Positions 1,788 to 53,171 of a stretch of 64,000 nt of DNA are shown here, in pieces; position 1 is the first letter of the stretch, and each line of letters starts with the position of its first letter. The notes below the pieces were generated by a model that was not told the origin of the DNA, did no database searches, and saw only the letters and a program-made list of their open reading frames with translations. Made by a program: the position numbers and the translations under genes. Source of the DNA: Mobula hypostoma (taxonomy: Eukaryota). The stretch lies in assembly GCF_963921235.1 (NCBI RefSeq), contig NC_086097.1:67892001-67956000 (forward strand). Reading direction: 5' to 3'.

Positions 1788-4409
1788 AATGGCGTCAGTG
1801 AACTATAATGATGTTCTGGGGGCTACATATAATACTTCCAAGTCTACTTCTTTTGAATTACTCTCACTGCAATCTGCAGCATGTAATTTCCTTTGAAGCA
1901 ATGTACTTATAAATAAACTTAATGATCTACAGACTTCCTGATCTTCTGAAGGACTCGGCAGACTAAACAGGTACAACACCTTTAAGTGGACGAAGGTTCA
2001 TTGCCATGGTTAGAAGCATGGCGGGGGTGGGGGGATGAGGGTTGGGGGGGGAAAGGGGTGGGACACCAAGCCAGGCTGAAGCATAGAGGAATAAGTCTCC
2101 CTCTACCCAACATTTTGTTAGCAAACCTGTAGTCACAAAATTGAGGACCTGAGGGCAAGATTGCTATGTTGCAGGGAAGTAAGAAATTGTTGTGTTCTAT
2201 GTTTGAATGAGACTTGGCTTTCTTCCAGCATGCCAGATACAGTGATTAGATCCGGAGGTTTCTCAGTTACAGAATGGACTGAATTGCTGGTTTGGAAAAG
2301 GCGAAAGGTGGAGATGTGTGTTTCATGATAAACTCTTGGTGGTGCTCCAAATGGTGGTTTTTTTTAACTTGTGTTCCCCCGACCTTGAACGCCTAACAGT
2401 CAAATGTCATCCATTGTATTTACCTGGGTAGTTTCCCTCCATAATCCTGACTGCCAGCAGTCAACTATAATCAAGTGCTTGAGATACTGCATGATGCCTT
2501 CTCAAAAAAGAAAAGGTCTATCCTGATGCATTTCAAATCATAATTAGGAATGTAAACCAGGCTCGTTTGAAGAAAACCCTGTCCAATAACCATCAGCATA
2601 TAACCTGTAGCAGCAGAGGTTCAAACACACTTGACCACTGTTATACTATGATAAGGAATACCTACCATTCCATAGCCAGCCCGCATTTTGGTAAATCTAA
2701 TCATTTGGTTGTCCTTCTGTCTACATACAGGCAGAGACTAAAGAGCAAAATTCTGCAGATTAAAACAACAAAGGGGTAGCCGTGGAAGCAGAGGAGTGGT
2801 TATGGGATTGCTTTGAGTAGGTAGACTGGGTCATGTTCATGGACTCATCTGTGGATCTGAATGAATACACCATGGTTGTCATGGACTTTATTAAAACAGT
2901 TGTGGACAAGTGTGTCCCCAAAAAAATCATTCAGAATCTTCCCCAACCAGAAGCCTTGGATGAACCAATATGCTGAGCGCCAGATGAGAGACTTTCAAGT
3001 CTGGAGACCAAGAAAGTTACAAGAGGTCCGGGTACAACCTCCAGAAAGCTATCTCACCTGTGAAGTGGATAAAATTCTGGATGAAAATTGAAGGAACAAA
3101 GGACACTCAACTGTTATGGTTGAGCTTGAATATCTCTTATAAAGTTAAATCAAGCAAACATAAGTGTCAATAGGACTTTGCTTCCAAATGAGCTCAATGC
3201 CTTCCATGCTCGCTTTGACCATCAAAACTAGGAGGAAACATAACAAACTCACACAGCCCCTGATGATCCTGTGATTTCAATCTCTGAGGCCAATGTGTGA
3301 GCAGCGTACAGGAGGGTGAACCCACAGAAAGCACCTGGCCCATGACAGGTATCTGGCCAAGTACTAAACACCCGAAGTGGATCACCAGGCTGGAGTGTTC
3401 ACTGAAATCTTTAACCTCTCGCTTCAGCAGTCTGGAGGTACCTACCTGCTTCAAGCAAACTTCAATTATCTCGGTGTCTAAGAAGAACCTGCCTCAATGA
3501 CTATCATTCAGTAGCACTTACATCTACAATGATGAAGTGCTTTGAGAGTTTGGTGATGAAACATATCAATTCCTGCCTGAGAAGTGACATGAATCTGCTC
3601 TAATTTGCTTACCGGAACAGGTAAGGCATTCAATACTATCATCCCCTCAATAAACTTCAAAGCCTTGGTCTGAACACCCCCTTGTGCAATTGGATCCTCG
3701 ATTTCCTCAATTACAAACCACAGTCAGTTCAGATTGGCAACAACATCTCCTCCACAATCTCATCAGCACAGGTGCACCATAAAGCTGTGTGCTTAGCCCC
3801 CTGCTCTACTCGCTTTATATTTATGAATGTGCGGCTAAGCACAGCTCCAATGCATATTCAAGTTTGCTGACGACACCACTGTCATAGGCTGAATCAAAGG
3901 TGGTGACAGATCAGCTTATAGGAGGGAGACTAAAAATCTGGCCAAGTGGTGCCATAACATCAACCTTTTACTCAACGTCAAGCAAGACCAAAGAGCGGAG
4001 TACTGACTTCAGGATGAGGTAACCAGACGCCCATAAGTTGGGCCCCAACAGAGGATCAGAGGTGCAGAGGGTAAGCAGCTTTAAATTACTCAGAGTTATT
4101 ATTTTGGAAGACCAGTCCTGCGCCCAGCACCTAAGTGCAATTATGAAGAAAGCATAGCACCACCTCTACTTCCTTGGGAGTTTGTGAATATTTGGCATGT
4201 AACCTCTCATTATGGTCAGTCCATCACGGGTAAAGCTGTCCCCACCGCTGAGTACATCTACACCAAGCACTATCGCAGGAAAGCAGCATCCAACAGTAGG
4301 GACCCACACCAACCAGGACATGCACTTTTCTGATTGCTGTCATCAGGAAGAAAGTACAGGAGCTTCAAGACTCACATCACCAGTTTCAGAAACAATTATT
4401 ACCCTTGAA
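1788..4409 (+). mobile_element. Degenerate near-full-length Rex1/Babar-like non-LTR retrotransposon (APE endonuclease + RT)
   Basis: Broken frames carry endonuclease motifs (LCLNETWL, TLDHCYT, HFGKSNHLVVLL), [18 protein letters not shown] and the RT KFADDTT motif (~3860-3880). Homologous to the better-preserved copy at 32995-34945. Many stops and frameshifts; boundaries approximate. Confidence 0.85.
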
Positions 4410-4411
4410 CC

Positions 4412-5064
4412 AAATCAGAATCAGGCTTATTATCACTGGCATGTGTTGTGGAATTTGTTAACTTAGCTGCAGCAAATACAATGCAATATATGATAATCTA
4501 GAAAGAAAAAGATAAAGTAAATCAATTCCAGTAAGTAGAGATATGCATATTAAATAGATTAAAATTAGTGCAAAAACAGAAGTAATATACATTTTAAAAA
4601 AATGTGAGGTACCGTAATGTTCATGGGTGCGGTGCATGGCTAAGCGGTTAGGGTGTTGGTCTAGCGATCTGAAGTCGTGGGTTCGAGCCTTGACCGAGGC
4701 AGCATGTGTGTCCTTAAGCAAGGCACTTAACCACACAGTCTACCCAGCTGGGAATGGGTACCAGCAAAAAAAAAATGCTGGGGGTTAATCTCACAATAGA
4801 CTGGCGTACTATCCGGGGGAGGGGGTAGTCTCGTACCCTCAGTCGCTTCACGCCACGGAAACCAGCCTGATGGGCCACAAGGCTCGTGACAGACTTCAAT
4901 CTTTAAAAATGCTCATGGGTTCAAAGTCCATTTAGGGATCATATGGCAGAGGGGAAGAAGCTGTTCCTGAATCGCTGAGTGTGCCTTCAGGCTTCTGTAC
5001 CTCCTACCTGTGATAACAATGAGAAGAGGAAGTGATTTCTGAGGCACCACTCATTGAAGAGGCC
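4412..5064 (-). mobile_element. 3' fragment of a Rex1/Babar-type LINE in reverse orientation, interrupted by a SINE
   Basis: The reverse complement reads as a LINE 3' end (RYRSLKAHTQRFRNSFFPSAI-like frame at ~4940-5010) and ends in AATAAG..(TGATTC)n at ~4412-4430. Similar to the + strand fragment at 39620-39820. Confidence 0.7.
4629..4907 (+). mobile_element. tRNA-derived SINE with CORE-like central domain
   Basis: Pol III A box TGGCTAAGCGG and B box GGTTCGAGCC, followed by GTGTCCTTAAGCAAGGCACTTAACC. Flanked by a 13-bp TSD with 1 mismatch: AATGTTCATGGGT (4616-4628) / AATGCTCATGGGT (4908-4920). Confidence 0.85.
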
Positions 5065-5169
5065 TCACAGGTAGGAGGTACAGAAGCCTGAAGGCACACT
5101 CAGCGATTCAGGAACAGCTTCTTCCCCTCTGCCATATGATCCCTAATTGGACTTTGAACCCATGAGCAT
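4909..5169. repeat. 105-bp inverted repeat (104/105 identical) with 51-bp spacer
   Basis: 4909-5013 is the reverse complement of 5065-5169, with one mismatch. Confidence 0.95.
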
Positions 5170-7955: not shown

Positions 7956-8856
7956 TTGATAGGTTCTTGATTAGTCAGGGCATCAAAGGTTATGGGTTTG
8001 AGAGAGGCAATAAATCAGCTATGAAGGAATAGCAGAGCAGACATTATGGGACAAGTGTTCTAATTCTACTCCTACGTCTTATAGACAGAGTAAACATTTT
8101 ACAATTTCAGAAGTTCCTATGTTTATTCACAAGTAAAACAACATCTCTATCATCCAAGTATATGCACCCAGAATGACAAGCTCAGAGGAAGATATTGATG
8201 CCTTCTACCACTCCCTAGACAAAGCACTAGAAAAATGCAAATCACAAGAAGCCATCATAGTCATGGGCGGCTTCAATGCAAAAGTTGGTGAGGGAAGGGA
8301 AGACCATATTGTTGGAGACCAGGGATTCGGAGAAAGAAATGAAAGAGGAGAAGAGCTTATATCATGGTGTAAAACAAACAATTAGATAATCACCAGCACT
8401 TCGTCTAAACAACATCCAAGAAGGAAATGGACATGGAGAGGCCCAGATGGGAACTGTAATATTGATGTGACTCGGCCACAGCTGTAGATTGAACAACCAC
8501 GTTTATTCACCAGACTTCTATTTTTTTAAAACCCTTTTTCCATGTCCTGATGTCATACGTACTCTGACGCTACAAATACTCACACAATACATTACATCTC
8601 CCTTCTCAAGATTTTTTTTTACAACACTGTGAATGACCAAAACAATGCCTCTAGCTATGCCCTTCTTACAGTGCAACAACCACGACATAAACTAAAAAAA
8701 TCTTACCTTCTTGTACTGTATTCTGCATTATATTTTACAATACTAACAGCAGTGTATTTTCTTTTACAAACATAGACTAATAAACCTTTTATTTCACACC
8801 CTGGAACTTATAACATGCGTAGCTTTGCCTCAAACTGTGTGAGAGTGTATGTATGT

Positions 8857-10525
8857 CTAGTCTCTGTATCTAGCTGGAAGTTTGACTTGTCTCCCAGACC
8901 GTGTGTGATACAACTGTGACTGTGCTTGACTTTCATCCGTGTCAGTCTCTCCAGTGACCTCTGTGTCTTTGGGGTCTGAATCGTTCTTGGTGTCGTTTGT
9001 TTCCATGTCTGTATATGTGAAAACGTCCTGTGCATCTGTACGTGGAAACATACTCTTGCTTGTCTTCAGCAGATGCTTCCTGTTCCTCCTATATTCTCTT
9101 CCATCCGGCATGTAAACTATGAAGGACCTTGGTTGCTGATGTCTGCTCACAACCACAGCTGATTGCCAAGTGTCTCCTCTCTGTATTCTGACATTTTCAC
9201 CTGTATGCAGATCTGGCAACTGTCTTGTATGTCTGTCATAGTAGCTCTTTTGCTTTATCTGCTTGTACTTTTGCTTGTCACGTACTTGAGCGTTACCTTC
9301 AGGGGTCAGTAGAGTTGTGGATGTTGGCAGTTTGGACTTCAGACGACGTCCCATCAACAGCTGCGCAGGAGAGAACCTCACACCCTCAATCGGTGTGTTG
9401 CGGTATTCAAGCAGAGCAATGTAAGGGTCACTGTCGCTGCTTTGTGCCTTCTTGAGCATGTTCTTGACAGTTTGTACAGTTCTCTCTGCTTGTCCATTAG
9501 ACTGAGCGTGCCCTGGACTGGAAGTAACATGTTGAAATTCCCAGCTTTCTGAGAACTCTCTGAACTTACCACTGGCATATTGTGGACCATTGTCACTGAC
9601 GACAGTATCTGGAATACCATGTCCTGCAAATGTCAACTTCATCGCAGTAATGACACCTCGACTGGACATGTCACTTAACTTGGTGATCTCCGGATATTTT
9701 GAATAGTAGTCCACACAATGCAGATATTCTGTACCATTGTAGTGAAAGAGATCTGTGCCAACCTTCTCCCATGGTCTTCCTGGTAGTGGGTGGGGAAGCA
9801 GAGGCTCTCTTGGATTGTTGTTTTGGTTTTCATTACAGACAGCACACTGAGACACAATGTCCTCTATCTGAGTTGACATGCCTGGCCAATAGAGAATGTC
9901 CCTTGCTCTTTCTTTACATTTCACTATGCCCAGGTGTGACTCATGAATTTTGTTGAGCATTTCCTGTCTCATTTGGTTTGGTACGATGAGTTTTGCTGTT
10001 TTAAACATTAGTCCTGATGCATAGCTGATTTCCTCTTTAAATGTCCAGTATTTCTGCATTTCCTTTGGAACATCTTTTCTTTCTGTTGGCCATCCATTCA
10101 TTGAAATGTCTCTTAGCATTTGCATTTCAGGATCATCTGCAGTTGCTTTCCTGAACATGTTCAACTTCTCCTCAGAGATGGGTAGCTGAGGTGTAACCCA
10201 GTTGACGTCCAGCTCTCTTCCTAGCAACTCTTCCTTCTGCTCTTTGAGGTAAGCACGGCTCAAAGCATCAGCGATGTGCAGTTCTTTTCCCGGCTTATAG
10301 GTGACTGTGAGAGTGTACCTCTGTAGCCTGAGAAGCATCCTTTGCAGCCTCATAGGAGCTTGGTGGAGTGGCCTTTTGAAGATGCTCTCATTTGGTTTGT
10401 GATCACTCTCAACCTGGATTTCTTTGCCATTTACATATTGGTGGAACTTCTCACACCCATAAACTATGGCAAGTAATTCCTTCTCGATTTGAGCATATTG
10501 GCATTGGCAGTCCGTAAGTGTCTTC
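8857..10525 (-). CDS. pol: Gypsy pol fragment: C-terminal RNase H and complete integrase (open frame, no native start)
   Basis: YAQIEKELLAIVYG..SDHKP (RNase H), HESH..CAVC zinc finger, GTDLF / VSDNG / QAERTV DDE triad, C-terminal TRSGRQVKLPARY. Confidence 0.9.
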
Positions 10526-10529
10526 AAGC

Positions 10530-10563
10530 GGAGGCGTGGGTTTGAATCCCACTTCTGACACCA
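10530..10563 (-). promoter_or_regulatory. Extended primer-binding site complementary to the tRNA-Leu 3' end including CCA
   Basis: The + strand reads GGAGGCGTGGGTTTGAATCCCACTTCTGACACCA, which matches the vertebrate tRNA-Leu(CAA) 3' end as I recall it at 33/34 nt (TTCGAA>TTTGAA). It abuts the 5' LTR. Confidence 0.88.
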
Positions 10564-12615
10564 TGTAATATTGATGTGACTCGGACACCGCTGTAGATTG
10601 AACAACCACGTTTATTCACCAGACTTCCATTTTTTTAAAACCCTTTTTCCACGTCCTGACGTCATATGCACTCTGACGCTACGAATACTCACACGATACA
10701 TTACAGGAACAACAAAAATCAAATTGACTACATAACAATCAATAACAGATACAAAAACTTGATAACTCAATCTAAAAGCTACCCTGGAGCAGACTGTGGA
10801 AGTGACCACATAACAGTCATTTACAAAATGAAAATAAAGATGAGGAAATTAAAGAAACCAAAAAGATCAGAACCACTGGATTATCAACAACTACAAAACA
10901 ACCCTCATGTGAAAATAGAATACACAATCAAGGTGAAAAACTGTTTTCAATTGTTGCGGGATGAAGGAGGCAAATCTTCCTGGGACATACTGAAGGAATC
11001 CATGGTTGAAGCTGCAAAAGAAACCATCCCATGAAAAGAACGGAAAAGTAAGAAGAAATGGATAACTGAAGATATAATATAATTGATGCAACAAAAACAG
11101 ACCATCAAACTAAGAGACAGCAAAGAATACAAACAACTTGATAATAAAAAGAAAATGCAGAGAAGCTAAAGACAGATGGCTAAATGAGAAATGCTCAGGG
11201 ATAGAAATGCTACAAACCCATAACCCTGGAACAAAGTTGATGCACAGTAAGATTAAAGAACTAACGGGGAAATTACCTTGCTCAGCAAGTGGATGCATCA
11301 AGGCAAAAGATGGCAGCTTAATTATGAGCAAAGAGGAAATCCTAAACAGATGGACAGAATATATAAAAGAACTTTTTGAAGACCAGAGAGGAGAAAAACT
11401 GAACATAAAGAAGATTCTTGAAGGACCTAGCATTCTACAATCAGAAATTCAAGCAGTTATAAATAAAACAAAACATAACAGCGCAACTGGTCCAGACAAC
11501 ATCGCTGTTGAAATGATACTGGCCTTAGAAGATTTTGGAATAGAGAGAATAACAGAAATAGCAAATGAAATCTGTGATCATGGGGAGATACCTGATGATT
11601 TAAGTAAATCAGTGTTCATCACACTTCCAAAGAAAGAGGGAGCAAAGAATGTGAGTTACATCGTACAATAAGCCTGATGAGCCACGTGGCAAAAATTATT
11701 CTCAGAGTAATCATGATGAGAGCAAAACGCTGTATTAAACCAGAAATCAGTAAAGAACAATGTGGCTTTGTGGAAAACACTGGAACCAGAAATTCAATTT
11801 TTATGCTACAGATGATCTGTGAACCAGCCATCCAGGTACAAAAAGACATCTACCTATGTTTCATCGACTATACAAAAGCTTTTGACACTGTCAAACACTA
11901 AGATCTTCTGGAAATACTTCAAGATCTTGGCATAGATGGGAAAGATAATATGTTTCTTAAGAAACTTATACTGGGATCAGACAGCATCCATCAGAATAGA
12001 AGGAGAAGTGAGTGAGTATATGAATATCATGAGAGGAGTCAGGCAAGGTTGTGTCTTTTCGCCAGACTTATTCAACCTGTACAGTGAAAATATTTTGAGA
12101 AGTATCAAAGACATCAAAGGATTCACAATTGGAGGCCAGAATATAAATAACATCAGATATGCTGATGACATCATACTAATAGCTGACTCAGAAACAACAC
12201 TTCAAGAACTACTCACTATAGTGGCAGCAGAAAGTAATCACAGAGGCCTCTCAATCAACACCAAGAAGACAGAAAGCATGGTCATCTCCAGAAAGACAAA
12301 CATCTCACAATGTGTGATTGAAGCACCTTCAATTACTCCAAAAGACTGAGGTTTGGTAAAATACTGAAAGGCTTTTATTCGCTGTACAATACGACCTCCA
12401 CAGTGAGTGTCTGCCCCCGGACTGAGGGGGAGGGGCAAGGCAAATACCTTTATACAGGACTCTGTGGGAGGAGCCACAGGGGCAGTCAGCAGAGGGGCGT
12501 GTCCAGACAGGTAACCCAGTTACAACATATATACATGGTTTACCACATTCACCCCTCTTTTTTTAAAAAGAGTCCCGCGGGGTGAAGTGACTGACAATAT
12601 TTACAAGAAGTATAT

Positions 12616-15011
12616 TTACAGGTTAAGTCTATCAGGCGGTCGAGTCCGTCGCTGTGACCTACGTAGCACTGGCGGTGATTACACTGGCGATGGCGGTTGT
12701 GCTGGCTCCAGCCTGACTTGAGGTATCAGCACGTTAGGCGTCGGTAATCCCTCGTGCGTGTGCGTCGCGCCCGGTATGGGAGTGTCGTGTGGTGTCTGTA
12801 TAGGGTTTGGGGTGCACGGTGTCTCGTAGGTACATACATTGGTGGGTACGGGGTCAATAGTCACCACGGAGTGTTCAGGGTAGGGGCCCGGAGCTCCTGC
12901 GGGTGCCAGGTCGCGGATGGAGACCGTGTCCTCCCGCCCATCAGGTAAAACCACGTAGGCATACTGGGGGTTCGCATGAAGTAAGTGAACCCTCTCGACT
13001 ATCGGGGAGTATTTATTGCTCCTCGCATGTTTCCGGAGCAGCACTGGCCCCGGGGACGTCAGCCAAGATGGTAGGGTGGTTCCAGTGGTCGATTTACTGG
13101 GAAAAGAAAAGAGCTGCTCATGAGGGGTGGCATTGGTGGCCGTGCATAACAGGGAGCGGATGGAGTGGAGTGCCTCGGGAAGGACCTCCTGCCAGCGGGA
13201 GACCGGCAGTCCCTTTGACCTGAGGGCTAAGAGTGTGGCCTTCCACACTGTGCCATTCTCCTTCTCTACCTGTCCATTCCCCCGGGGATTATAGCTCGTG
13301 GTCCTACTGGTTGCAATTCCCCTAGCCAGTAGATATTGGCGCAGCTCGTCACTCATAAATGAGGACCCTCTGTCACTGTGGATATAGCATGGGTATCCGA
13401 ACAGAGTGAAGAGCTTGTGCAGGGCTTTTATAACTGACGTGGTAGTGGTGTCGGGGTAGGGGATGGCGAAGGGGAACCGCGAGTACTCGTCAATTACGTT
13501 AAGAAAGTACACATTGCGGTCGATGGAGGGAAGGGGGCCCTTAAAGTCAATACTCAGTCGCTCAAAGGGGCCGGTGGCCTTGATGAGTGGTGCCTTTTCG
13601 GGTCAGTAGAAGTGCGGTTTGCACTCTGCGCAGACTTGGCAGTCCCTGGTCATCATCCTGATCTCCTCAAGGGAGTAAGGCAGGTTCCGGGCTTTCAAGA
13701 AGTGGAAAAGCCGGGTGACTCCCGGGTGGTAAAGGTCTACATGTAGGGCGTATAGCCGGTCGATCTGCGCGCTGGCGCACGTTCCCCGGGATAGGGCATC
13801 GGAGGGCTCGTTGAGCTTCCCAGGCCTGTACATGATGTCATAGTTGTAGGTGGAGAGTTCGATTCTCCACCTCAGAATTTTATCATTTTTGATTTTGCTC
13901 CGCTGCTGATTATTAAACATGAATGCGACTGAGTGCTGGTCAGTTAGCAGGGTGAACCTTTTGCCGGCAAGATAGTGCCTCCAGTGCCTTATAGCTTCCA
14001 CTATGGCCTGGGCCTCTTTCTCCACTGCAGAGTGCCGAATTTCAGGGCCTTGAAGGGTACAGGAGAAGAACGCCACTGGTCTTCCTGCCTGGTTGAGGGT
14101 AGCAGCCAGCGCAAAGTCGGAGGTGTCACTCTCCACTTGGAAGGGAATGGCCTCAACCACCGCATGCATTGCTGCTTTGGCAATGTCCCCTTTTATGAGG
14201 TTGAAGGCCACGTGGGCCTCGGCAGAGATGGGGAATGTGGTGGACTTGACCGGGGGCGGGCCTTGTCTGCATAGTTAGAGACCCATTGGGCGTAATATGA
14301 AAAGAAGCCCAGGCACCTTTTGAGGGCTCTGAGGGTATTGGGAAGAGGGAGTTCCAACAAGGGGCGCATACGGTCGGAGTCAGGGCCAATGACTCCATTC
14401 TCCACGACACACCCAAGGATAGCAAGTCGGGTGGTCCCAAATACATACTTGTCCTTGTTATAGGTGAGGTTGAAAGATTTGGCCGCTTGGAGAAATTTTT
14501 GGAGGTTGTTGTCGTGATCCTGCTGGTCGTGACCGCAGTTGGTGATGTTATCCAGATATGGGAACGTGGCCTTCAGTTGGCACTGGTCCACCATCCGGTC
14601 CATTGCCCTCTGGAAGACAGATACACCATTCGTGACACCAAAGGGGACGCGCAGGAATTGATAAAGCCTGCCGTCCGCCTCGAAGGCAGTGTAAGGGCGG
14701 TCCTCCCGGCGGATGGGGAGCTGATGGTAAGCGGATTTTAGGTCTATGGTCGAGTACACCTTGTACTGTGCTATCTGGTTGACCATATCCGCGATGCGGG
14801 GTAGAGAGTATGCGTCGAGCTGCGTGAACCTATTGATGGTCTGGCTATAGTCCACGACCATCCTATTTTTCTCTCCGTTCCGAACAACGACCACCTGCGC
14901 CCTCCAAGGACTTGTGCTTACCTCAATGACCCCCTCCCTGAGCAGCCGCTGCACCTCCGACTTAATGAAAGCTCTGTCCCCCGCGCTGTACCTCCTGCTT
15001 TTAGTTGCCAC
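12616..15011 (-). pseudogene. pol: Gypsy pol (RT-RNase H-integrase), disrupted
   Basis: RT motifs SPW..RMVVDY..IDLKSAYHQL..PFGVTNG..YLDN (catalytic D>N), RNase H ESDTS..EKEAQA..TDQH, integrase H..HPG..CQVC, IDEYSR / HSDRG / VEKEN. Frameshift near 14200-14260 and in-frame stops at 13603 and 12679. Natural end RRSQRRTRPPDRLNL* at 12616. Confidence 0.92.
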
Positions 15012-15015
15012 AGGT

Positions 15016-16494
15016 TTACAGTCGGGGGTCAGGTTGGCGAACAGTGGTGGGGGAGGGATCCTGAGGGTGGAGAGGCCGCAAGTGGTGTCGGTAGTGTGGC
15101 AGTTGGCATGATGTTGGGTGGGATGTGCGGGTCGGTGTGTGTGTGTGTGTGGTCAGTAGCGGGGTACGTGACATATCTCTGCAAAACAGGGGATTTATGA
15201 CAGTAATTGGCGGGAGGGGCCCATCATATTTCATTGTCACGCTTTTCAGGTGGCTCTGGAAGTCCAACCCCAGCAGCACAGGGGCAAACAGTTGAGGCAA
15301 GACCAGTAACGTAAAGTCCCGATATTCTGTGCCCTGAACCACTAGTGTCGCTACACAACCCCCCCGGATGTCTGTTGTATGCGACCCGGAGGCCATGGTG
15401 ACCCTCTGACTTACCGGCCGTATCATGAGTCCACAATGCTGCATCGTGGCCGGGTGGATAAAACTCTCCATGCTGCCTGTGTCAAACAGGCAGCTTGTCC
15501 TGTGCCCCTCCACCAGGATGTCCATCATTGACCTTGCGAGCTGGTGGGGAGCGCTTTGGTCAAGGGTCACGGAAGCCAGGGTGGGGTCGCTGTCTTGGTC
15601 CGGCGTGGTGGGGTGCCCTGTGAGCACCTGTTGGTCGTAGGCGGTGGGAGGTGGAGCCGACCGAGATGGCCGCCCCCATGTCTCGCACGTGGTGGCGTGC
15701 AGGGAAGATGGCGGCAGGCAAGATGGCGACCCCCACGTCTCGCACGCAGCGCTGCTCGATCCCGCTCGCGGTTTTGACTTACAGACCTTGGCGAAGTGGC
15801 CCTTCTTTCCGCAGCTGGAACAGGTAGCTTGTCGGGCCGGGCAGCGTTTCCGGGGGTGCTTCTCCGGTCCGCAGAAGTAGCACTTCGCGGACTCACGACT
15901 GGCAGCAGCCGTGGTCGATTCGCCGGCACGTTTCGGGGTCTGCGGCACCCACGAGGCCATCGGGGGATTGCGTGCCTGGAGAGCCTCGGAGTTATGCAGA
16001 GCGGCCTCCAACGTATCAGCCAGCTCCATCGCCGAACTTAGGGTAAGATTGGCTTTTTCCAGCAGCCGCTGGCGCACGTACACTGACCTGGTCCCCGTGA
16101 TGAAGGCGTCCCTCACCAGGAGTTCTGCATGCTGTGCCGCCGTCAGCTCCTGGCAATTGCAGGCTCGCACGAGCGTCTGTAGGGCCTGGACGAACTCAGC
16201 ACTCGATTCCCCGGGGCGTTGTTGCCGTGTCGCTAAACGGTGCCGAGCATAGACGCTGTTTATCGGCCGCAGGTATTGTCTTTTGAGTGCGTTCATTGCG
16301 CCACCATAGTTCGGCTGGTCTCTGACCCGTGGACTGACCCTGGAGAGTAGAACTCTGAGCTTCGCTACGGGGTCGGTCGCTTTAATCTCCTCTAGATACG
16401 CTTTGAAGCAGGCCAGCCAGAGTTCGAAAGTGTTTCCAGCTTCAGGTGTTTGCGGATTGAGGTCTAATTTTTCTGGTCTCAGGGACTGTTCCAT
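15016..16494 (-). CDS. gag: Gypsy gag-protease ORF (frameshifted from downstream pol)
   Basis: ATG 26 nt downstream of the 5' LTR. Two CCHC knuckles (CYFCGPEKHPRKRC, CSSCGKKGHFAKVC). Aspartic protease motifs LFDTGS and LLGLDF. Confidence 0.92.
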   Translation of the reverse strand: MEQSLRPEKLDLNPQTPEAGNTFELWLACFKAYLEEIKATDPVAKLRVLLSRVSPRVRDQPNYGGAMNALKRQYLRPINSVYARHRLATRQQRPGESSAEFVQALQTLVRACNCQELTAAQHAELLVRDAFITGTRSVYVRQRLLEKANLTLSSAMELADTLEAALHNSEALQARNPPMASWVPQTPKRAGESTTAAASRESAKCYFCGPEKHPRKRCPARQATCSSCGKKGHFAKVCKSKPRAGSSSAACETWGSPSCLPPSSLHATTCETWGRPSRSAPPPTAYDQQVLTGHPTTPDQDSDPTLASVTLDQSAPHQLARSMMDILVEGHRTSCLFDTGSMESFIHPATMQHCGLMIRPVSQRVTMASGSHTTDIRGGCVATLVVQGTEYRDFTLLVLPQLFAPVLLGLDFQSHLKSVTMKYDGPLPPITVINPLFCRDMSRTPLLTTHTHTPTRTSHPTSCQLPHYRHHLRPLHPQDPSPTTVRQPDPRL

Positions 16495-16622
16495 GTTTTA
16501 AAATGTACAGCGAATAAAATTGAAGCACCTTCAATTACTCCAAAAGACTGAGGTTTGGTAAAATACTGAAAGGCTTTTATTCGCTGTACAATACGACCTC
16601 CACAGTGAGTGTCTGCGCCCGG

Positions 16623-16656
16623 ACTGAGGGGGAGGGGCAAGGCGAACACCTTTATA
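16623..16656 (-). promoter_or_regulatory. Putative LTR promoter: TATAAA box and TCAGT initiator
   Basis: TATAAA on the - strand at 16656-16651 and TCAGT at 16627-16623 (A about 31 nt downstream of the TATA start). AATAAA follows at ~16581-16576. Confidence 0.6.
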
Positions 16657-17385
16657 CAGGACTCTGTGGGAGGAGCCACAGGGGCAGTCAGCAGAGGGGT
16701 GTGTCCAGACAGGTAACCCAGTTACAACATATATACATGGTTTACCACAGTGATCAAGATCAGAAATACAAACATCAGACAAGTCAACAAATTCCGATAT
16801 CTTGGCAGCCTAACAACGAGTGATGGCAGGTGCGACACAGATATCAAATACAGAATAGCAATGGCGAAAGAAGCTTTCCAAAAAATGAAGACCATGTTAA
16901 CAGACAGAAAGATGAGCATATACACTAAAAACAAAATACTGCAGTGCTACAGTTATTCTATCCTGACTTATGGAAGTGAATGCTGGACCATTTCCCCAGC
17001 AATGGCAAAGAGACTAGAAGCAGCTGAATTATGGTTCTACGGGAGAATGTTAAAAATATCATGGACCACACACACATCAAATGAAGAAGTTCTCAGAAGA
17101 GCCCAAGCAGTTCGATCACTCATACCAACAATAAGAGAAAGACAACTCAGATTCCTAGGACACATCATGCGGAATGATGAACTAGAAAAACTCATACTCC
17201 CTGGAAAGATCGAGGGAGCAAACCTAGAGGAAGACCTCGGCTTATGTACATCAAAAGCATAGCCAGGTGGCTACACATCGAGGAAATGGAAGACATCCAA
17301 AAAACGAAGGATAGATCTATATGGAAAACCATGGTCACCAACGTCTGCATCGGATATGGTACCTGGACAGACAGATTATACTGGT

Positions 17386-45692: not shown

Positions 45693-47396
45693 TACCCCTC
45701 GATCGTGACCCCACTAAGGAGCACCAGGCCACTGTCTCCCACACTATCAACGACTTTATCCGCTCAGGGGATCTCCCATCCACTGCTACCAACCTTATAG
45801 TTCCCACACCCCGCACTTCCCGTTTCTACCTCCTACCCAAGATCCACAAACCTGCCTGTCCTGGCCGACCTATTGTCTCAGCTTGCTCCTGCCCCACCGA
45901 ACTCGTTTCTGCATACCTCGACACTGTTTTATCACCCCTTGTTCAATCCCTTCCGACCTATGTTCGTGACACTTCTCACGCTCTTAAACTTTTCGATGAT
46001 TTTAAGTTCCCTGGCCCCCACCGCTTTATTTTCACCATGGATGTCCAGTCCCTATATACTTCCATCCCCCATCAGGAAGGTCTCAAAGCTCTACGCTTCT
46101 TTTTGGATTCCAGACCTAATCAGTTCCCCTCTACCACCACTCTGCTCCGTCTAGCAGAATTAGTCCTTACTCTTAATAATTTCTCCTTTTGCTCCTCCCA
46201 TTTCCTCCAAACTAAAGGTGTAGCTATGGGCACCCGTATGGGTCCTAGCTATGCCTGCCTTTTTGTTGGGTTTGTGGAACAATCTATGTTCCGTGCCTAT
46301 TCTGGTATCTGTCCCCCACTTTTCCTTCGCTACATCGACGACTGCATTGGCGCTGCTTCCTGCACGCATGCAGAACTCGTTGACTTTATTAACTTTGCCT
46401 CCAACTTTCACCCTGCCCTCAAGTTTACCTGGTCCATTTCCGACACCTCCCTCCCCTTTCTAGATCTTTCTGTCTCTGTCTCTGGAGACAGCTTATCCAC
46501 TGATGTCTACTATAAGCCTACTGACTCTCACAGCTATCTGGACTATTCCTCTTCTCACCCTGTCTCTTGCAAAAACGCCATCCCCTTCTCGCAATTCCTC
46601 CGTCTCCGCCGCATCTGCTCTCAGGATGAGGCTTTTCATTCTAGGACGAGGGAGATGTCTTCATTTTTTAAAGAAAGGGGCTTCCCTTCCTCCACTTTCA
46701 ACTCTGCTCTTAAACGCATCTCCCCCATTTCACGTACATCTGCTCTCACTCCATCCTCCCACCACCCCACTAGGAATAGGGTTCCCCTGGTCCTCACCTA
46801 CCACCCCACCAGCCTCCGGGTCCAACATATTATTCTCCGTAACTTCCGCCACCTCCAACGGGATCCCACCACTAAGCATATCTTTCTCTCCCCCCCTCTC
46901 TGCATTCCGCAGGGATCGCTCCCTACACAACTCCCTTGTCCATTCGTCCCCCCCATCCCTCCCCACTGATCTCCCTCCTGGCACTTATCCGTGTAAGCGG
47001 AACAAGTGCTACACATGCCCTTACACTTCCTCCCTTACCACCATTCAGGGCCCCAAACAGTCCTTCCAGGTGAGGCATCACTTCACCTGTGAGTCGACTG
47101 GGGTGATATACTGCGTCCGGTGCTCCCGATGTGGCCTTTTATATATTGGTGAGACCCGACGCAGACTGGGAGACCGCTTTGCTGAACATCTACGCTCTGT
47201 CCGCCAGAGAAAGCAGGATCTCCCAGTGGCCACACATTTTAATTCCACATCCCATTCCCATTCTGACATGTCTATCCACGGCCTCCTCTACTGTAAAGAT
47301 GAAGCCACACTCAGGTTGGAGGAACAACACCTTATATTCCGTCTGGGTAGCCTCCAACCTGATGGCATGAACATTGACTTCTCTAACTTCCGCTAG
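45693..47396 (+). pseudogene. PLE ORF (RT core, thumb, GIY-YIG) with a single frameshift near 46885-46900
   Basis: ORF 45674-46969 (RT) and the end of ORF 46503-47396 (GIY-YIG). The copy at 50581-51306 reads through this point as HIFPSPHLSAFRRD. Confidence 0.9.
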
Positions 47397-47693
47397 GCCC
47401 CACCTCCCCCTCGTACCCCATCTGTTACTCTTTTTTATGCACACATTCTTTCTCTCACTCTCCTTTTTCTCCCTCTGTCCCTCTGAATATACCTCTTGCC
47501 CATCCTCTGGGTCAACCCCCCCCCCCCCGTCTTTCTTCCCGGACCTCCTGTCCCATGATCCTCTCGTATCCCCTTTTGCCTATCACCTGTCCAGCTCTCG
47601 GCTCCATCCCTCCCCCTCCTGTCTTCTCCTATCATTTTGCATCTCCCCCTCCCCCTCCAGCTTTCAAATCCCTTACTCACTCTTCCTTCAGTT

Positions 47694-47729
47694 AGTCCTG
47701 ACGAAGGGTCTCGGCCTGAAACGTCGACT
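47694..47729 (+). ncRNA. Minimal type I hammerhead ribozyme in the PLE 3' UTR
   Basis: AGTCCTGACGAAGGGTCTCGGCCTGAAACGTCGACT, identical to 17577-17612. Confidence 0.8.
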
Positions 47730-48355
47730 GTGGCTCTTCCTAGAGATGCTGCCTGGCCTGCTGCGTTCACGAGCAACTTTGATGTGTGTTGCTTGAATTT
47801 CCAGCATCTGCAGAATTCCTGTTGTTCCTTAGTATATTGATCAAGATGTTGGCAATCCAATTGCTATGCCTGGCAGATGTTGTTGTAAGTAGGGCATTTA
47901 GAAGGATACCAGCAAATTTGCCGGTAACGTAAATAGACATCAGTTTGACATACCACACTGATGCTCTTGTTCAATTCAGACTAAAATGCTTAATTCATGA
48001 ACTCTGACCTGCTTGAGAACAGTAGAGGGCATATCCTGACTGGTAAATTAGTGTTTGCGATATTTGTCTCTGTGCCATCCCATTCCTATTGAAGAAGACT
48101 GATTCTAAGATCAGAGCTCATCTTGTAGCATTAACTCCTACTTTTACAGGTGTAAAGATATCTCTATTTTCTAGGTACCTGTGCATATGGCTGAAGTTTG
48201 TGTTTCAAGCATCTTTTGGAAAGACTTTCCTATTTTTTTAAACACAGTTTCAGTTTCTACTAAAATAGCAAATGCATTTTCACTTTTAATGAAGGCAGTA
48301 TTTTATACTTAATGATACACTACTTCAACAAACTTGTATTTGCCAAAGGTAATGC

Positions 48356-49023
48356 CAGACATCCCACCCTGCAAAAACTGATTTCAGGGAGGTAGCACTA
48401 TCAATTTGCAGGAGACTTCCAGGAGAGGTGGGATGTCTGCAATAGAGTAACTCCTTAGCAGCTGGCCAGCTAGTTTAAATAACATTAGCTATGCTAATGA
48501 ACGAATGACACCTGTTAAACTCACCTCAACATGTCTTTTACAGTCTTAACCCACCATGGGCAATAGAAAAGTCACTGTTGCAAACAGTGCAGCGAGCAAC
48601 ACTGTCATTATTTTTGACCCCTATTAGGCAGGGGTACACTTTAGTGTAGTCTGGGGTGACGTACGTTTTATATTTTTTTGGAACACTCTGCCATGGCGCG
48701 CTGTTGCTCTCTCTCTCGCTCTCGCTTGCTTGCTCTCGCGCTTTCTCTCTCTCTCGCTTGCGCTCTCACTTGCTTTCTCTCACTCTCTCTCACACTTGCT
48801 TTCTCTCTCGCGCTCTCTCTCTCTCGCTTGCTTTCTCTCTCGCACTCTCACTCTCACTCTCTCTCTCTCTCATGGTCGCTCTCGCGCTCTCTCTTGCTTT
48901 CTCTCGCTCGCTTGCTCTCAAAAAAATTGATTTCCGTGATATTGTATATAATTTGCGGCCATCAGGGAGCCACTATTCATATGCGGGAGACTCCCAGAAC
49001 TTCCGGGAGAGGTAGGATGTCTG
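48356..49023. mobile_element. Non-autonomous DNA transposon with a duplicated right end and an internal CT/CG microsatellite
   Basis: TIR CAGACATCCCACC (48356-48368) versus GGTAGGATGTCTG (49011-49023), plus an internal perfect GGTGGGATGTCTG (48427-48439). TAATGC direct repeat at 48350-48355 and 49024-49029. Confidence 0.75.
48705..48920. repeat. Degenerate (CT)n/(CTCG)n microsatellite
   Basis: Visible low-complexity ctctctcgct repeats. Confidence 0.95.
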
Positions 49024-49537
49024 TAATGCACACTTATTAATTAACTCACTTCCATATAAAAGCCACAGTAGATTCCATTATACAGAATTAAATATTTGCT
49101 AGGTGTCTTTCTCACTCCTTGAGAGTTAAATGTGTTGAAATAATTATACCAAGCTTTCTGATAGTTGAAATAACTATTTGACAATAAACAGCCAAAATAT
49201 TTTGACTTACTATAAAGAAAGCATATTTTAAATAACCAAAGATTATTTCCCCACAGCACAAAATAATGTAGCATGATTTTACTAGGTCTTGTGTTAGAAA
49301 AGTCCATGTATACAGTGTACTTAACTTGGTTGTGTGATATGTTAATCACACTCTCACAGGACACTCTTTCCTGAACACTTAAACCAGCCAGGCATTCTTC
49401 TTTAGCTAAAATGAAATACTTAACCGTGCTGCTTTCAGGATGAAAGCTTAGCAAGCAGCAATTAAGATTTTGTGGACAATCACCAGCTAATTTGGATTAA
49501 AGACAAAGGAAAATCAATGATCTTCAGTATATGATTA

Positions 49538-50253
49538 TTGAGGTACAATACTTGCAATACTCAAGCTGTTGGGGTTGTCTGCTGTATCCAGTGCCCCCGA
49601 TGCAGCCTCTTCTGTATCGGTGAGACCCAATGTAGATTGGGGGGGGGGGGCACTTTCAAGCACCTCTGCTCCATCCACAAAAAGCAGAATTTCTTAGTGG
49701 CCAAGCATTTCAATTCCTATCTTCATTCCTGTTCCAACATGTTCCATGGCCTCCTGTTCTGTCATGATAAGGCCACTCTCAGATTCAAGAAGCAACACCT
49801 CACATTCCATATAGGTAGCCTCCAACTTGAAGGCATGAACTTAGATTTCTCAACTTCCAGTAATTTATTTTTCCCCCTACACCTTTCCCTCTTTCTTTCC
49901 ACATTCTGGCCTCTTACCTCTCCTCCTTACCTACCTATCACCTCCCCCTGATGCCCCTCCTCCTTCCCTTTCTCTCATCACTCTCTTTCCTCTCCTATCA
50001 GATTTCTTCTTCTCCAGCCCTTTGCTTTTCCCATTTATCATCTCCCAGCTTCTTAATTCATTCCTGTCTCCCACCTGCCTGACTTCACCCATCACCTTCC
50101 AGCCTGTCCTCCTTCCCCTCCCCCGCCTTCCCTCTTCTTTTGCAATGCCGATGAAGGGTCTCTGCCTGAAACATCAACAGTTTATTCATTTCCATCGAAG
50201 CTGCCCGTCCTGCTGAGTTCCTCCAGAATTTTGTGCGCGCTCATCTGGATTGC
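49538..50253 (+). mobile_element. Older Penelope-like 3' fragment (GIY-YIG + 3' UTR with decayed hammerhead)
   Basis: GVVCCIQCPRCSLFCIGETQCRLG..VAKHFNS..QHLTFHIGSLQLEGMNLDFS, and ccgatgaagggtctctgcctgaaacatcaac at ~50148-50178. Confidence 0.85.
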
Positions 50254-51503
50254 CAGGACTAACTGAAAGAAGAACTAGTAAGAGATTCGAAAGTGGGAGT
50301 GGGAGGGGGAGGGGGAGATCCGAACTGATAGGGGAAGACAGGAGGCGGAGGGATGGAGCCAAGAGCTGGACAGGTGATTAGCAAAAGGGATATGAGGGGA
50401 TCATGGGACAGGAGGCCTAGGGAGAAAGAAAAGGGGAGGGGGGAAGCCCAGAGGATGGGCAAGGGATATAGTGAGAGGGACAGAGGGAGAGAAAGGAGAG
50501 AGAGAAAAAGAATGTGTGTATATAAATAAATAATGGATGGGGTACGAGGGGGAGGTGGGGTACAAGGGGGAGGTTGGGAATTAGTGGAAGTTTGAGAAGT
50601 CAATGTTCATGCCATCAGGTTGGAGGCTACCCAGACGGAATATAAGGTGTTGTTCCTCCAACCTGAGTGTGGCTTCATCTTTACAGTAGAGGAGGCTGTG
50701 GATAGACATATCAGAATGGGAATGGGATGTGGAATTAAAATGTGTGGCCACTGGGAGATCCTGCCTTCTCTGGCGGACAGAGCGTAGGTGTTCAGCGAAA
50801 TAATCTCCCAGTCTGTGTCGGGTCTCGCCAATATATAGAAGGCCAGATTGGGAGCACCGGACGCAGTATATCACCCCAGAACGCTCACAGGTAAAGTGTC
50901 GCCTCACCTGGAAAGACTGTCTGGGGCCCTGAATGTAAGGGCATGTGTAGCACTTGTTCCACTTACAAGGATAAGTACCAGGAGGGAGATCAGTGGGGAG
51001 GGATGAGGGGGACGAAGTGACAAGAGAGTCGCGTAGGGAGCGATCCCTGCGGAAAGCAGAGAGATGGGGGGATGGAAAGATATGCTTAGTGGTGGGATCC
51101 CGTTGGAGGTGGCGGAAGTTATGGAGAATTATATGTTGGACCCGCAGGCTGGTGGGGTGGTAGGTGTCGACAAGGGGAACCTTATTCCTAGTGGGGTTGC
51201 GGGAGGATGGAGTGAGAGCAGACGTGCGTGAAATGGGGGAGATGCGTTTGAGAGCAGAGTTGATGGTGGAGGAAGGAAAGCCCCTTTCTTTATAAAAGGA
51301 GAACATTTCCTTCGTCCTGGAATGAAAAGCCTCATCCTGAGAGCAGATACGGCGGAGATGGAGAAATTGCGAGAAGGGGATGGCATTTTTGCAAGAGACA
51401 GGGTGAGAAGAGGAATAGTCCAGATAGCTGTGAGAGTCAGTAGGCTTACAGTAGACATCAGTAGATAAGCTGTCTCCAGAGATAGAGACAGAAAGATCTA
51501 GAA
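50254..51503 (-). mobile_element. Penelope-like element, inverted arm
   Basis: ORF 50581-51306 encodes the RT thumb and GIY-YIG. The arm is the reverse complement of 51802-53041. Confidence 0.93.
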
Positions 51504-53171
51504 TTAGTCCTTACTCTTAATAATTTCTCCTTTGGCTCCACCCACTTCCTCCAAATTAAAGGTGTAGCCATGGGCACCCGTATGGGTCCCAGATATGCCT
51601 GCCTTTTTGTTGGCTTTGTGGAACAATCTATGTTCCAAACCTATTCTGGTATCTGTCCCCCACTTTTCCTTCGCTACATCAACAACTGCTTTGGCTCTGC
51701 TTCCTGCACACATGCTGAGCTTGTTGACTTCATTAACTTTGCCTCCAACTTTCACCCTGCCCTCAAGTTTACCTGGTCCATTTCCGACACCTCCCTCCCC
51801 TTTCTAGATCTTTCTGTCTCTGTCTCTGGAGACAGCTTATCTACTGATGTCTACTAAAAGCCTACTGACTCTCACAGCTATCTGGACTATTCCTCTTCTC
51901 ACCCTATCTCTTGCAAAAATGCCATCCCCTTCTCGCAATTCCTCCGTCTCCGCTGCATCTGCTCTCAGGATGAGGCTTTTCATTCTAGGACGAGGGAGAT
52001 GTCCTCCTTTTTTAAAGAAAGGGGCTTCCCTTCCTCCACCATCAACTCTGCTCTCAAACGCATCTCCCCCATTTCACGCACATCTGCTCTCACTCCATCC
52101 TCCCCACTAGGAATAGGGTTCCCCTTGTCCTCACCTACCACCCCACCAGCCTGCAGGTCCAACATATAATTCTCTGCAACTTCCGCCACCTCCAATAGGA
52201 TCCCACCACTAAGCACATCTTTCCCTCCCCCCACTGCTTTCTGCAGGGATTGCTCCCTACGCGACTCCCTTGTCCATTCGTCCCCCCCCCCATCCCTCCG
52301 CACCGATCTCCCTCCTGGCACTTAACCTTGTAAGCGGAACAAGTGCTACACATGCCCTTACACTTCCTCCCTCACTACCATTCAGGGCCCTAGACAGTCC
52401 TTCCAGGTGAGGCGGCACTTCACCTGTGAGTCAGCTGGGGTGATATACCGCATCCGGTGCTCCCAAAGCGGCCTTCTATATATTGGCAAGACCCAATGCT
52501 GACTGGAAGATCATTTCGCTGAACACCTATGCTCTGTTCACCAGAGAAAGCAGGATCTTCCAGTGGCCACACATTTTAATTCCACGTCCCATTCCCATTC
52601 TGATATGTCTATCCACGGCCTCCTCTACTGTAAAGACGAAGCCACACTCAGGTTGAAGGAACAACACCTTATATTCCATCTGGGTAGCCTCCAACCTGAT
52701 GGCGTGAACATTGACTTCTCAAACTTCCACTAATGCCCCACCTCCCCCTCATACCCCATCCATTATTTATTTATTTATATGCACACATTCTTTTTCCCTC
52801 TCTCCTTTTTCTCCCTCTGTCCCTCTCACTATATCCCTTACCCATCCTCTGGGCTTCCCCCCTCCCCCTTTTCTTTCTCCCTGGGCCTCCTGTCCCATGA
52901 TTCCCTCATATCCCTTTTGCCAATCACCTGTCCAGCTCTTGGCTCCATCTCTCCCCCTCCTGTCTTCCCCTATCAGTTCGGATCTCCCCCTCCCCCTCCC
53001 ACTTTCAAATCTCTTACTCGCTCTTCTTTCAGTTAGTCCTGACGAAGAGTCTCGGCCCAAAACGTCAACTGTACCTCTTCCTAGAGATGCTGCCTGGCCT
53101 GCTGCGTTCACCAGCAACTTTTGTGTGTGTTGCTTGAAATTCCAGCATCTGCAGATTTCCTCATGTTTGCG
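51500..53171 (+). mobile_element. Penelope-like element, forward arm (5'-truncated, disrupted)
   Basis: GVAMGTRMGP, LRYINN (catalytic DD lost), GIY-YIG remnant, 3' UTR with a decayed hammerhead at 53035-53070. Confidence 0.93.

What the first reader, a model, noticed from the sequence alone, without database searches (positions are those of the whole stretch)
10515..10563. tRNA-Leu read-through fossil: over-long PBS fused directly to RNase H, deleting gag-PR-RT
Seen: next to the 5' LTR is a 34-nt tRNA-Leu 3' end copy with CCA (10530-10563). It may extend through a variable-arm-like GTCTTC-AAGC-GGAGG to ~10520, where it merges into RNase H codons (K-T-L-T-D). Known: plus-strand strong-stop synthesis normally halts at m1A58, giving an 18-nt PBS (TGGTGTCAGAAGTGGGAT). 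Inference: RT read through position 58 along the T arm and variable arm, then the second strand transfer landed ectopically at a GAAGAC/GGAGAC microhomology in pol. That would produce the deletion in one replication cycle, and the product still integrated normally (intact LTR ends, 5-bp TSD). It would be a genomic record of priming by a hypomodified tRNA.
Basis: partly seen in the sequence, partly recalled or inferred. Interest (0 to 1): 0.75.

Follow-up and report, generated by a model that had tools for sequence, protein, structure and literature searches.

The report
Retrotransposon copy captured its primer tRNA
This single defective jumping-gene copy has 34-44 letters of its host's leucine tRNA joined straight to the middle of its polymerase gene, likely because copying overran the primer tRNA and restarted in the wrong place; the same error is described for HIV-1, and sister elements in this genome show such overruns ending mostly at two tRNA positions that are normally chemically modified.

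Summary
Observation confirmed. Beside the 5' LTR (minus strand) lie 34 nt matching the CCA end of host tRNA-Leu at 33/34, probably 44 nt with the variable arm (40/44), fused to RNase H. The junction is single-copy. The family's normal PBS is only 12 nt (148 exact copies), not 18. Of 19 copies with longer tRNA matches, 13 end at exactly 18 nt, the m1A58 stop; only this one goes past 20. A second LTR family holds 11 copies reading 27-58 nt into tRNA-Leu(AAG/TAG); 6 stop exactly before G37 and several land on 6-11 nt microhomologies. Best reading (0.8): plus-strand synthesis overran the primer, then jumped into pol, and the product integrated normally (5-bp TSD). Corrections: the claimed GAAGAC microhomology is absent from family pol (1 nt shared), K-T-L-T-D is a chance reading, and hypomodification is unproven. 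The mechanism is already in print for HIV-1 (44 defective proviruses, PMC12657518). I found no report of it in germline retrotransposons (10 paper searches), and the scan's notes held no look-alike. New variant of a known kind; interest 0.5.

The parts
10564..10705 (-). 5' LTR, 142 bp, TG...CA
   Evidence: 133 of 142 identical to the 3' LTR
10552..10563 (-). the family's normal 12-nt primer binding site for tRNA-Leu
   Evidence: 148 exact LTR+12-nt+A hits; leader seen
10546..10551 (-). tRNA copy, bases 13-18, up to the usual stop before A58; absent from normal family copies
   Evidence: 13 of 19 extended copies end at base 18
10530..10545 (-). tRNA copy past A58 (T opposite A58 at 10545) through the T arm; one CpG change at 10543
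   Evidence: 15 of 16 match to host tRNA-Leu genes
10520..10529 (-). probable copy of the tRNA-Leu(CAA) variable arm, U44 and G43; base 10520 is shared with pol
   Evidence: 8 of 10 to the best host arm, about P 0.02 after correction; folds as the arm
8608..10520 (-). pol remnant: C-terminal part of RNase H, integrase zinc-binding and core domains, 3' region
   Evidence: PF17917 profile 40-105, PF17921, PF00665; 92-94% identity to family copies from 10520 on
8597..8607 (-). polypurine tract
   Evidence: 11-nt purine run before the 3' LTR, read from the sequence
8455..8596 (-). 3' LTR
8450..8454 (+). target site duplication GGAAC, left copy
10706..10710 (+). target site duplication GGAAC, right copy; the target is a decayed LINE ORF (WTWRGPDG-N / N-KNQIDYI; LINE label recalled)

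Best explanation
The locus is a single, integrated, internally deleted Ty3/gypsy retrotransposon copy whose 5' LTR is followed by a 34-44 nt copy of host tRNA-Leu fused to RNase H, and it likely arose in one round of reverse transcription when plus-strand synthesis overran the primer tRNA and then jumped to the wrong place on the minus strand. Steps: (1) shown: orientation, CCA and contact with the LTR end identify the insert as a copy of the attached primer; (2) shown by sister copies: this family's plus-strand strong-stop DNA usually ends at base 18, six bases past its 12-nt PBS, and sometimes restarts at short homologies elsewhere; (3) inferred: here RT passed A58 and copied to about G43; (4) inferred: the unpairable end joined the minus strand inside RNase H with one shared base, by an end-to-end template jump, dropping about 3 kb or more (leader, gag, PR, RT); (5) shown: both LTR ends and a 5-bp TSD are intact, so integrase accepted the product; (6) shown: it was not amplified. 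Whether A58 was unmethylated or was read through while methylated is not decided (I put unmethylated at about 0.55).
For: 33/34 and 40/44 match to host tRNA-Leu genes, with a CCA that the genes do not encode. 148 normal 12-nt PBS copies against 19 extended copies, 13 ending at base 18. Landing sites of sisters carry the tRNA copy's last 4-8 letters in L127, L129, L077, L076, L131, L232. L129 and L077 share a landing site but are not among each other's 8 closest copies, so the event recurs. Exact TSDs in L128 (6 bp), L129, L132, L133, L076; near matches in L077, L127; none seen in L122, L125. A second family shows 11 read-throughs of 27-58 nt from different tRNA-Leu genes, 6 ending at base 47, the last base before G37 (P about 1e-8 if ends were uniform over 28-85), landing on 6-11 nt homologies in 6 of 11. 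Same structure in 44 defective HIV-1 proviruses, inserts 7-54 nt (PMC12657518). RT can bridge ends on 2-nt pairing (PMC3035444 abstract).
Against: This copy's junction has only 1 shared base, below the 2-nt minimum reported for RT clamping and unlike most sisters. It ends at base 43-44, not at the G37 stop, which for tRNA-Leu(CAA) would be base 49. The arm differs from every assembled gene at 2 or more of 10 bases. Ordinary internal deletions are common in this family. Two of the 19 extended copies (L126, L231) could be plain deletions whose landing homology mimics a tRNA extension. No read set confirms the junction.
Confidence: 0.8

Rival explanations
1. Two steps: read-through first made a near-complete copy with a longer tRNA insert (possibly to the G37 stop), and a later deletion, in a daughter round or in the chromosome, cut from inside the insert to RNase H.
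For: Explains the 1-nt junction and the end at 43-44 rather than 49. Copies that extend and then rejoin the leader exist (L122, L233 in this family; L150 in another). Internal deletions are frequent.
Against: A later deletion would have to start inside a target under 50 bp of a 5-kb element. No parent copy with the long insert exists in the assembly. Most extended sisters are deleted exactly at the end of their tRNA copy.
Confidence: 0.12
2. Read-through reached only base 34 (end of the T arm plus half the arm stem); the next 9 bases are untemplated or borrowed filler that resembles the variable arm by chance. This changes the length, not the mechanism.
For: No assembled gene matches the arm exactly; bases 35, 36 or 40 differ. 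Short filler occurs at sister junctions (L125, 3 nt; L128).
Against: 7 of 9 matches, P about 0.02 after correction; both differences from the best arm are transitions and the stem still pairs; no source for the 9-mer in family sequence.
Confidence: 0.15
3. The long PBS is inherited: a subfamily or an amplified non-autonomous element carries it.
Against: One locus only in three searches; 148 copies have the 12-nt PBS; contigs of two related organisms also diverge after base 12 (loose ends at 10552).
Confidence: 0.02
4. The tRNA piece came independently (a tRNA retrocopy or repair patch pasted at the PBS) or the junction is an assembly chimera.
For: No run spans the junction.
Against: The copy starts exactly at the LTR end in primer orientation with CCA, has a decayed CpG like old DNA, sits between LTRs with a matching TSD, and belongs to a recurring class.
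Confidence: 0.04

Closest known systems
Defective HIV-1 proviruses from delayed (aberrant) second-strand transfer, Hardy et al. 2025, PMC12657518 (abstract, outline and passages read)
   Same: LTR, PBS, then primer-tRNA sequence (7-54 nt there, 16-26 nt past base 18 here) defining a deletion junction; intact LTRs; attributed to failure to stop at m1A58.
   Different: Somatic lentivirus with tRNA-Lys3 and an 18-nt PBS there; a germline-fixed Ty3/gypsy retrotransposon with tRNA-Leu and a 12-nt PBS here, so even the normal stop overshoots by 6 nt. The passages I read report no pile-up of ends at position 37.
Plus-strand strong-stop at m1A58 and minor stops at 54/55 and ms2t6A37 in HIV-1 and M-MLV RT reactions (PMC8599865 passages; PMC13191261 section 10)
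   Same: Main end at base 18; a second end just before position 37.
   Different: Shown there in vitro and in cells; here read from integrated copies. The review says products stopped at 37 cannot serve as active templates, whereas here such products integrated by mis-jumping. Position 37 here is G (m1G37 inferred), not ms2t6A.
Ty1/Ty3 plus-strand transfer, where the primer sequence is not inherited (PMC5371799 passages; Lauermann and Boeke 1994, 1997 seen only as references)
   Same: Short PBS and a first strong-stop DNA that runs into the tRNA.
   Different: In Ty1/Ty3 the tRNA-extended product is described as a dead end; here such products were integrated as deleted copies.
Helenus, Ajax, Cassandra TRIMs (PMC10886601 passages)
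   Same: Non-autonomous LTR elements that carry small-RNA-derived sequence.
   Different: Their tRNA-like or 5S part lies inside the LTR as a Pol III promoter and is amplified; here it lies at the PBS, antisense, single-copy.

Membership tests
Ty3/gypsy LTR retrotransposon | Paired TG...CA LTRs, PBS, PPT, short TSD | tested here: met
Ty3/gypsy LTR retrotransposon | pol order RT - RNase H - integrase | tested here: met
   RNase H then integrase in the window; RT motifs upstream of the junction in sister copies
Mag clade of Ty3/gypsy (label recalled from motifs) | RT phylogeny grouping with Mag | not tested
   no tree built; resemblance recalled, from no call
Delayed second-strand-transfer product (Hardy 2025 class) | Primer tRNA sequence beyond the PBS, contiguous with the 5' LTR, in primer orientation | tested here: met
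Delayed second-strand-transfer product (Hardy 2025 class) | tRNA insert defines the deletion junction; LTRs intact | tested here: met
Delayed second-strand-transfer product (Hardy 2025 class) | Formed in one round of reverse transcription | not testable with these tools
   inferred from sister copies; two-step rival remains
Priming by m1A58-hypomodified tRNA | Primer lacked m1A58 | tested here: inconclusive
   T opposite A58 here and in 11 of 11 copies of the second family, but A or C in L106, L146; RT reads through m1A
Amplified non-autonomous subfamily / TRIM | Several copies share the junction | tested here: not met
   single copy
Helenus-type TRIMp3 | tRNA-derived promoter inside the LTR | tested here: not met
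   tRNA match lies outside the LTR, at the PBS

The most novel reading that the evidence does not exclude
Botched LTR-retrotransposon copies are a germline fossil record of primer-tRNA modification: their tRNA inserts end at m1A58 (base 18) and m1G37 (base 47), and the base fixed opposite position 58 separates unmethylated primers from misread methylated ones, so modification status and isodecoder use in ancient germ cells can be read, family by family, from genome assemblies alone.
Probability: 0.45. Interest if true: 0.72.

Novelty: new variant of a known kind. Interest (0 to 1): 0.5.

Why it matters
The locus itself is a dead copy. Its value is as one of a class. The class shows in vivo, in a vertebrate germline, where retrotransposon RT stops on its primer tRNA: at base 18 even when the PBS is 12 nt, and before G37 when position 58 is passed. 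That bears on a question long argued for retroviruses (whether m1A58 sets the plus-strand stop, PMC8599865) and extends a mechanism described for HIV-1 in 2025 to Ty3/gypsy elements. It shows that over-extended products are not always dead ends, names the tRNA genes that actually primed (different Leu isodecoders in different copies), and offers a route by which tRNA sequence enters LTR elements. A census needs only assemblies.

Tried and rejected
ARAGORN finds no tRNA at the locus and Rfam gives only a sub-threshold tRNA hit, 17.1 bits, E 0.87: it is a fragment, not a gene. ARAGORN labelled the intron-bearing host genes Thr(cgt); I call them Leu(CAA) from the CAA before the intron. Microhomology GAAGAC/GGAGAC in pol: absent in 29 of 29 copies. 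Bridge templated from the element: not found. A opposite position 58 as an m1A misreading signature: I first counted L093, L105, L144, L145, L148, L150 and L106, but one search showed that the family of L093/L105/L150 has a normal leader starting AC, so their A is uninformative; L143/L148 look like normal leaders; L144, L147 are too short to call; only L106 (A) and L146 (C) remain suggestive, with L145 possible. L071 was dropped from the 15 hits because it lacks this LTR. L158's 58-nt and L076's 20-nt ends overlap landing homology. Sequencing runs: no listed run holds half the words, no RNA holder listed; 4 runs laid, none spans the junction. Scan notes: 4 look-ups, no look-alike. Paper searches with no result: (I recall Pulsinelli and Temin 1991 on PBS-anchored deletions in a retroviral vector but could not see it). 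PMC7472051 and PMC8775094 passages hold nothing on over-long tRNA copies. Supplements were not read; those of PMC12657518 may list insert ends.

Full report
The locus. The element lies on the minus strand: 5' LTR 10705-10564, 3' LTR 8596-8455, 133 of 142 bases identical, TSD GGAAC on both sides, purine tract at 8597-8607. Between the LTRs are 44 bases of tRNA-like sequence and then a pol remnant that Pfam reads as the C-terminal part of RNase H, the integrase zinc-binding domain and the integrase core. It sits in a decayed LINE reading frame (LINE label recalled). A search of the own genome scored 40 of 638 candidates; I examined 29 other copies, and 27 begin to match at window 10520. Upstream of that point they continue into RNase H and RT. 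Against natural copy L117 the junction lands at 3300 of 5346, so about 3 kb or more is missing.

Is it tRNA? Host tRNA-Leu(CAA) and (CAG) genes in the same genome match 10530-10563 at 33 of 34 once CCA is added; the genes do not encode CCA. The mismatch is a CpG transition. The next ten bases match the best host variable arm at 8 of 10; without the last C, which pol shares, P is 0.0013 for one gene and about 0.02 over 14 variants. The arm still folds. No assembled gene matches it exactly. I put the 44-nt reading at about 0.85.

The family as control. The normal PBS is 12 nt, followed by an A-rich leader; an exact pattern finds 148 such copies. A looser pattern for 15 or more tRNA bases gave 15 loci, 14 with this LTR; one more came and four, 19 in all. 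Their tRNA matches end at base 18 in 13, at 15 in 2, and at 17, 19, 20 and 43-44 in one each. Copies ending at 13-14 could not be seen with these patterns, and L126 and L231 are ambiguous. Base 18 is the last before A58. After it the copies jump: to sense positions in gag or pol, back to the leader (2), to the antisense strand (2), or to sequence outside my reference copies (5). Many landing sites repeat the last 4-8 letters of the tRNA copy. Of 9 extended two-LTR copies checked, 5 have exact TSDs, 2 near matches, 2 none. So this family's plus-strand strong-stop DNA likely overshoots its PBS by six bases, and mis-jumped products integrate at roughly one per eight normal copies (rough: the patterns differ in stringency). 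The window's junction is unique, and it is the only one of the 19 past base 20.

Other families. A two-mismatch scan for CCA-bearing Leu(CAA/CAG) copies past base 18 gave 26 and 13 hits; most were tRNA genes, but LTR-end-like contexts with 27-38 nt matches appear in at least three other families (L096, L101, L105, L106, L146, L229), most without a partner LTR found within 7.5 kb. A family primed by tRNA-Leu(AAG/TAG) (Gmr1-like, label recalled) has a normal 18-nt PBS. Of 30 loci read from 35 hits, 23 end at 18 (21 with the normal leader), one at 19, one at 21, four at 46-47 and one at 56. With six more there are 11 read-throughs, 27-58 nt, from different tRNA genes; 6 end at base 47. G37 is base 48 from the 3' end. 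P is about 1e-8 if ends were uniform over 28-85; this ignores bias from landing homology. Six of the 11 land on 6-11 nt homologies in four reference copies, the rest were not mapped. Pairs that share a landing site are independent by sequence (L211/L218) or use different tRNA genes (L214/L220). m1G37 is reported on many zebrafish tRNA clusters and m1A58 on nearly all (PMC11417395 passages); that these Leu tRNAs carry m1G37 in this species is inferred.

Mechanism. Orientation decides the source: sequence complementary to the tRNA, starting at the LTR end with CCA, can only come from plus-strand copying of the attached primer; a minus-strand switch onto a free tRNA would give the other orientation (inference from the standard scheme, PMC13191261 section 10). 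Here RT passed A58 and copied to about G43, five bases short of the G37 stop, then joined the minus strand in RNase H. With one shared base this looks like an end-to-end jump; the reported RT clamp needs two (PMC3035444 abstract), so a two-step history keeps 0.12. On hypomodification the evidence is mixed: T opposite A58 here and in all 11 copies of the second family fits unmethylated A58, and those primers were evidently modified at 37; but RTs read through m1A with substantial frequency (PMC4787781 passages and section 27), and L106 and L146 carry A and C there. My first larger tally of A shrank.

What is known. Hardy et al. 2025 (PMC12657518; abstract, outline, passages) describe 44 defective HIV-1 proviruses with 7-54 nt of tRNA-Lys3 at the deletion junction and ascribe them to an unrecognised m1A58. 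The stops at 58, 54/55 and 37 are known from HIV-1 and M-MLV work. Ty1/Ty3 extend into tRNA without inheriting it. Helenus-type TRIMs are a different thing. Ten full-text searches showed no report of such inserts in germline retrotransposon copies or of ends at G37; the library lacks most subscription and older papers, so this is weak evidence of absence. Four look-ups in the scan's notes found no look-alike; one note (e1-9949081) used botched copies in a similar way for a self-priming family.

Verdict. The mechanism is in print for HIV-1; the germline Ty3/gypsy setting, the 12-nt PBS overshoot and the G37 pile-up make it a new variant. Interest 0.5.

Noticed in passing
G000 loci L152, L157-L160, L166, L168, L169, L173, L174, L182: An LTR family primed by tRNA-Leu(AAG/TAG) has 11 copies with 27-58 nt of primer tRNA, 6 ending just before G37; 5 of 30 unselected PBS loci are of this kind, a far higher read-through share than in the window's family.
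   Followed up: yes
G000 loci L066-L079, L133, L230-L233: The window's family has a 12-nt PBS yet its mis-jumped copies mostly carry 18 nt of tRNA; some jump to the antisense strand with inversions or to non-element sequence.
   Followed up: yes
window 12317-16749 (-): A second LTR element (231-bp LTRs, 98% identical) inserted in the same LINE; the bases after its 5' LTR do not look like a tRNA 3' complement and gag starts within about 30 bases. Could be tRNA-independent priming.
   Followed up: no
L137 (G000:C5:32698333) and L229 (G000:C5:143179758-143179810): Copies where LTR end plus PBS is repeated in tandem next to an extended tRNA copy, suggesting repeated strong-stop jumps.
   Followed up: partly
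L150 (G000:C96:23703749): About 10 tRNA bases past base 18, then return to the family's normal leader: an insertion without deletion.
   Followed up: partly
window 4909-5169: 105-bp inverted repeat, 99% complementary, 51-bp spacer.
   Followed up: no
window 46156-53167: 1.7-kb direct repeat (90%) and 1.3-kb inverted repeat (89%) in a rearranged repeat cluster.
   Followed up: no
window 13786-13876: ARAGORN tRNA-Gly call inside the second element's pol, probably spurious.
   Followed up: partly
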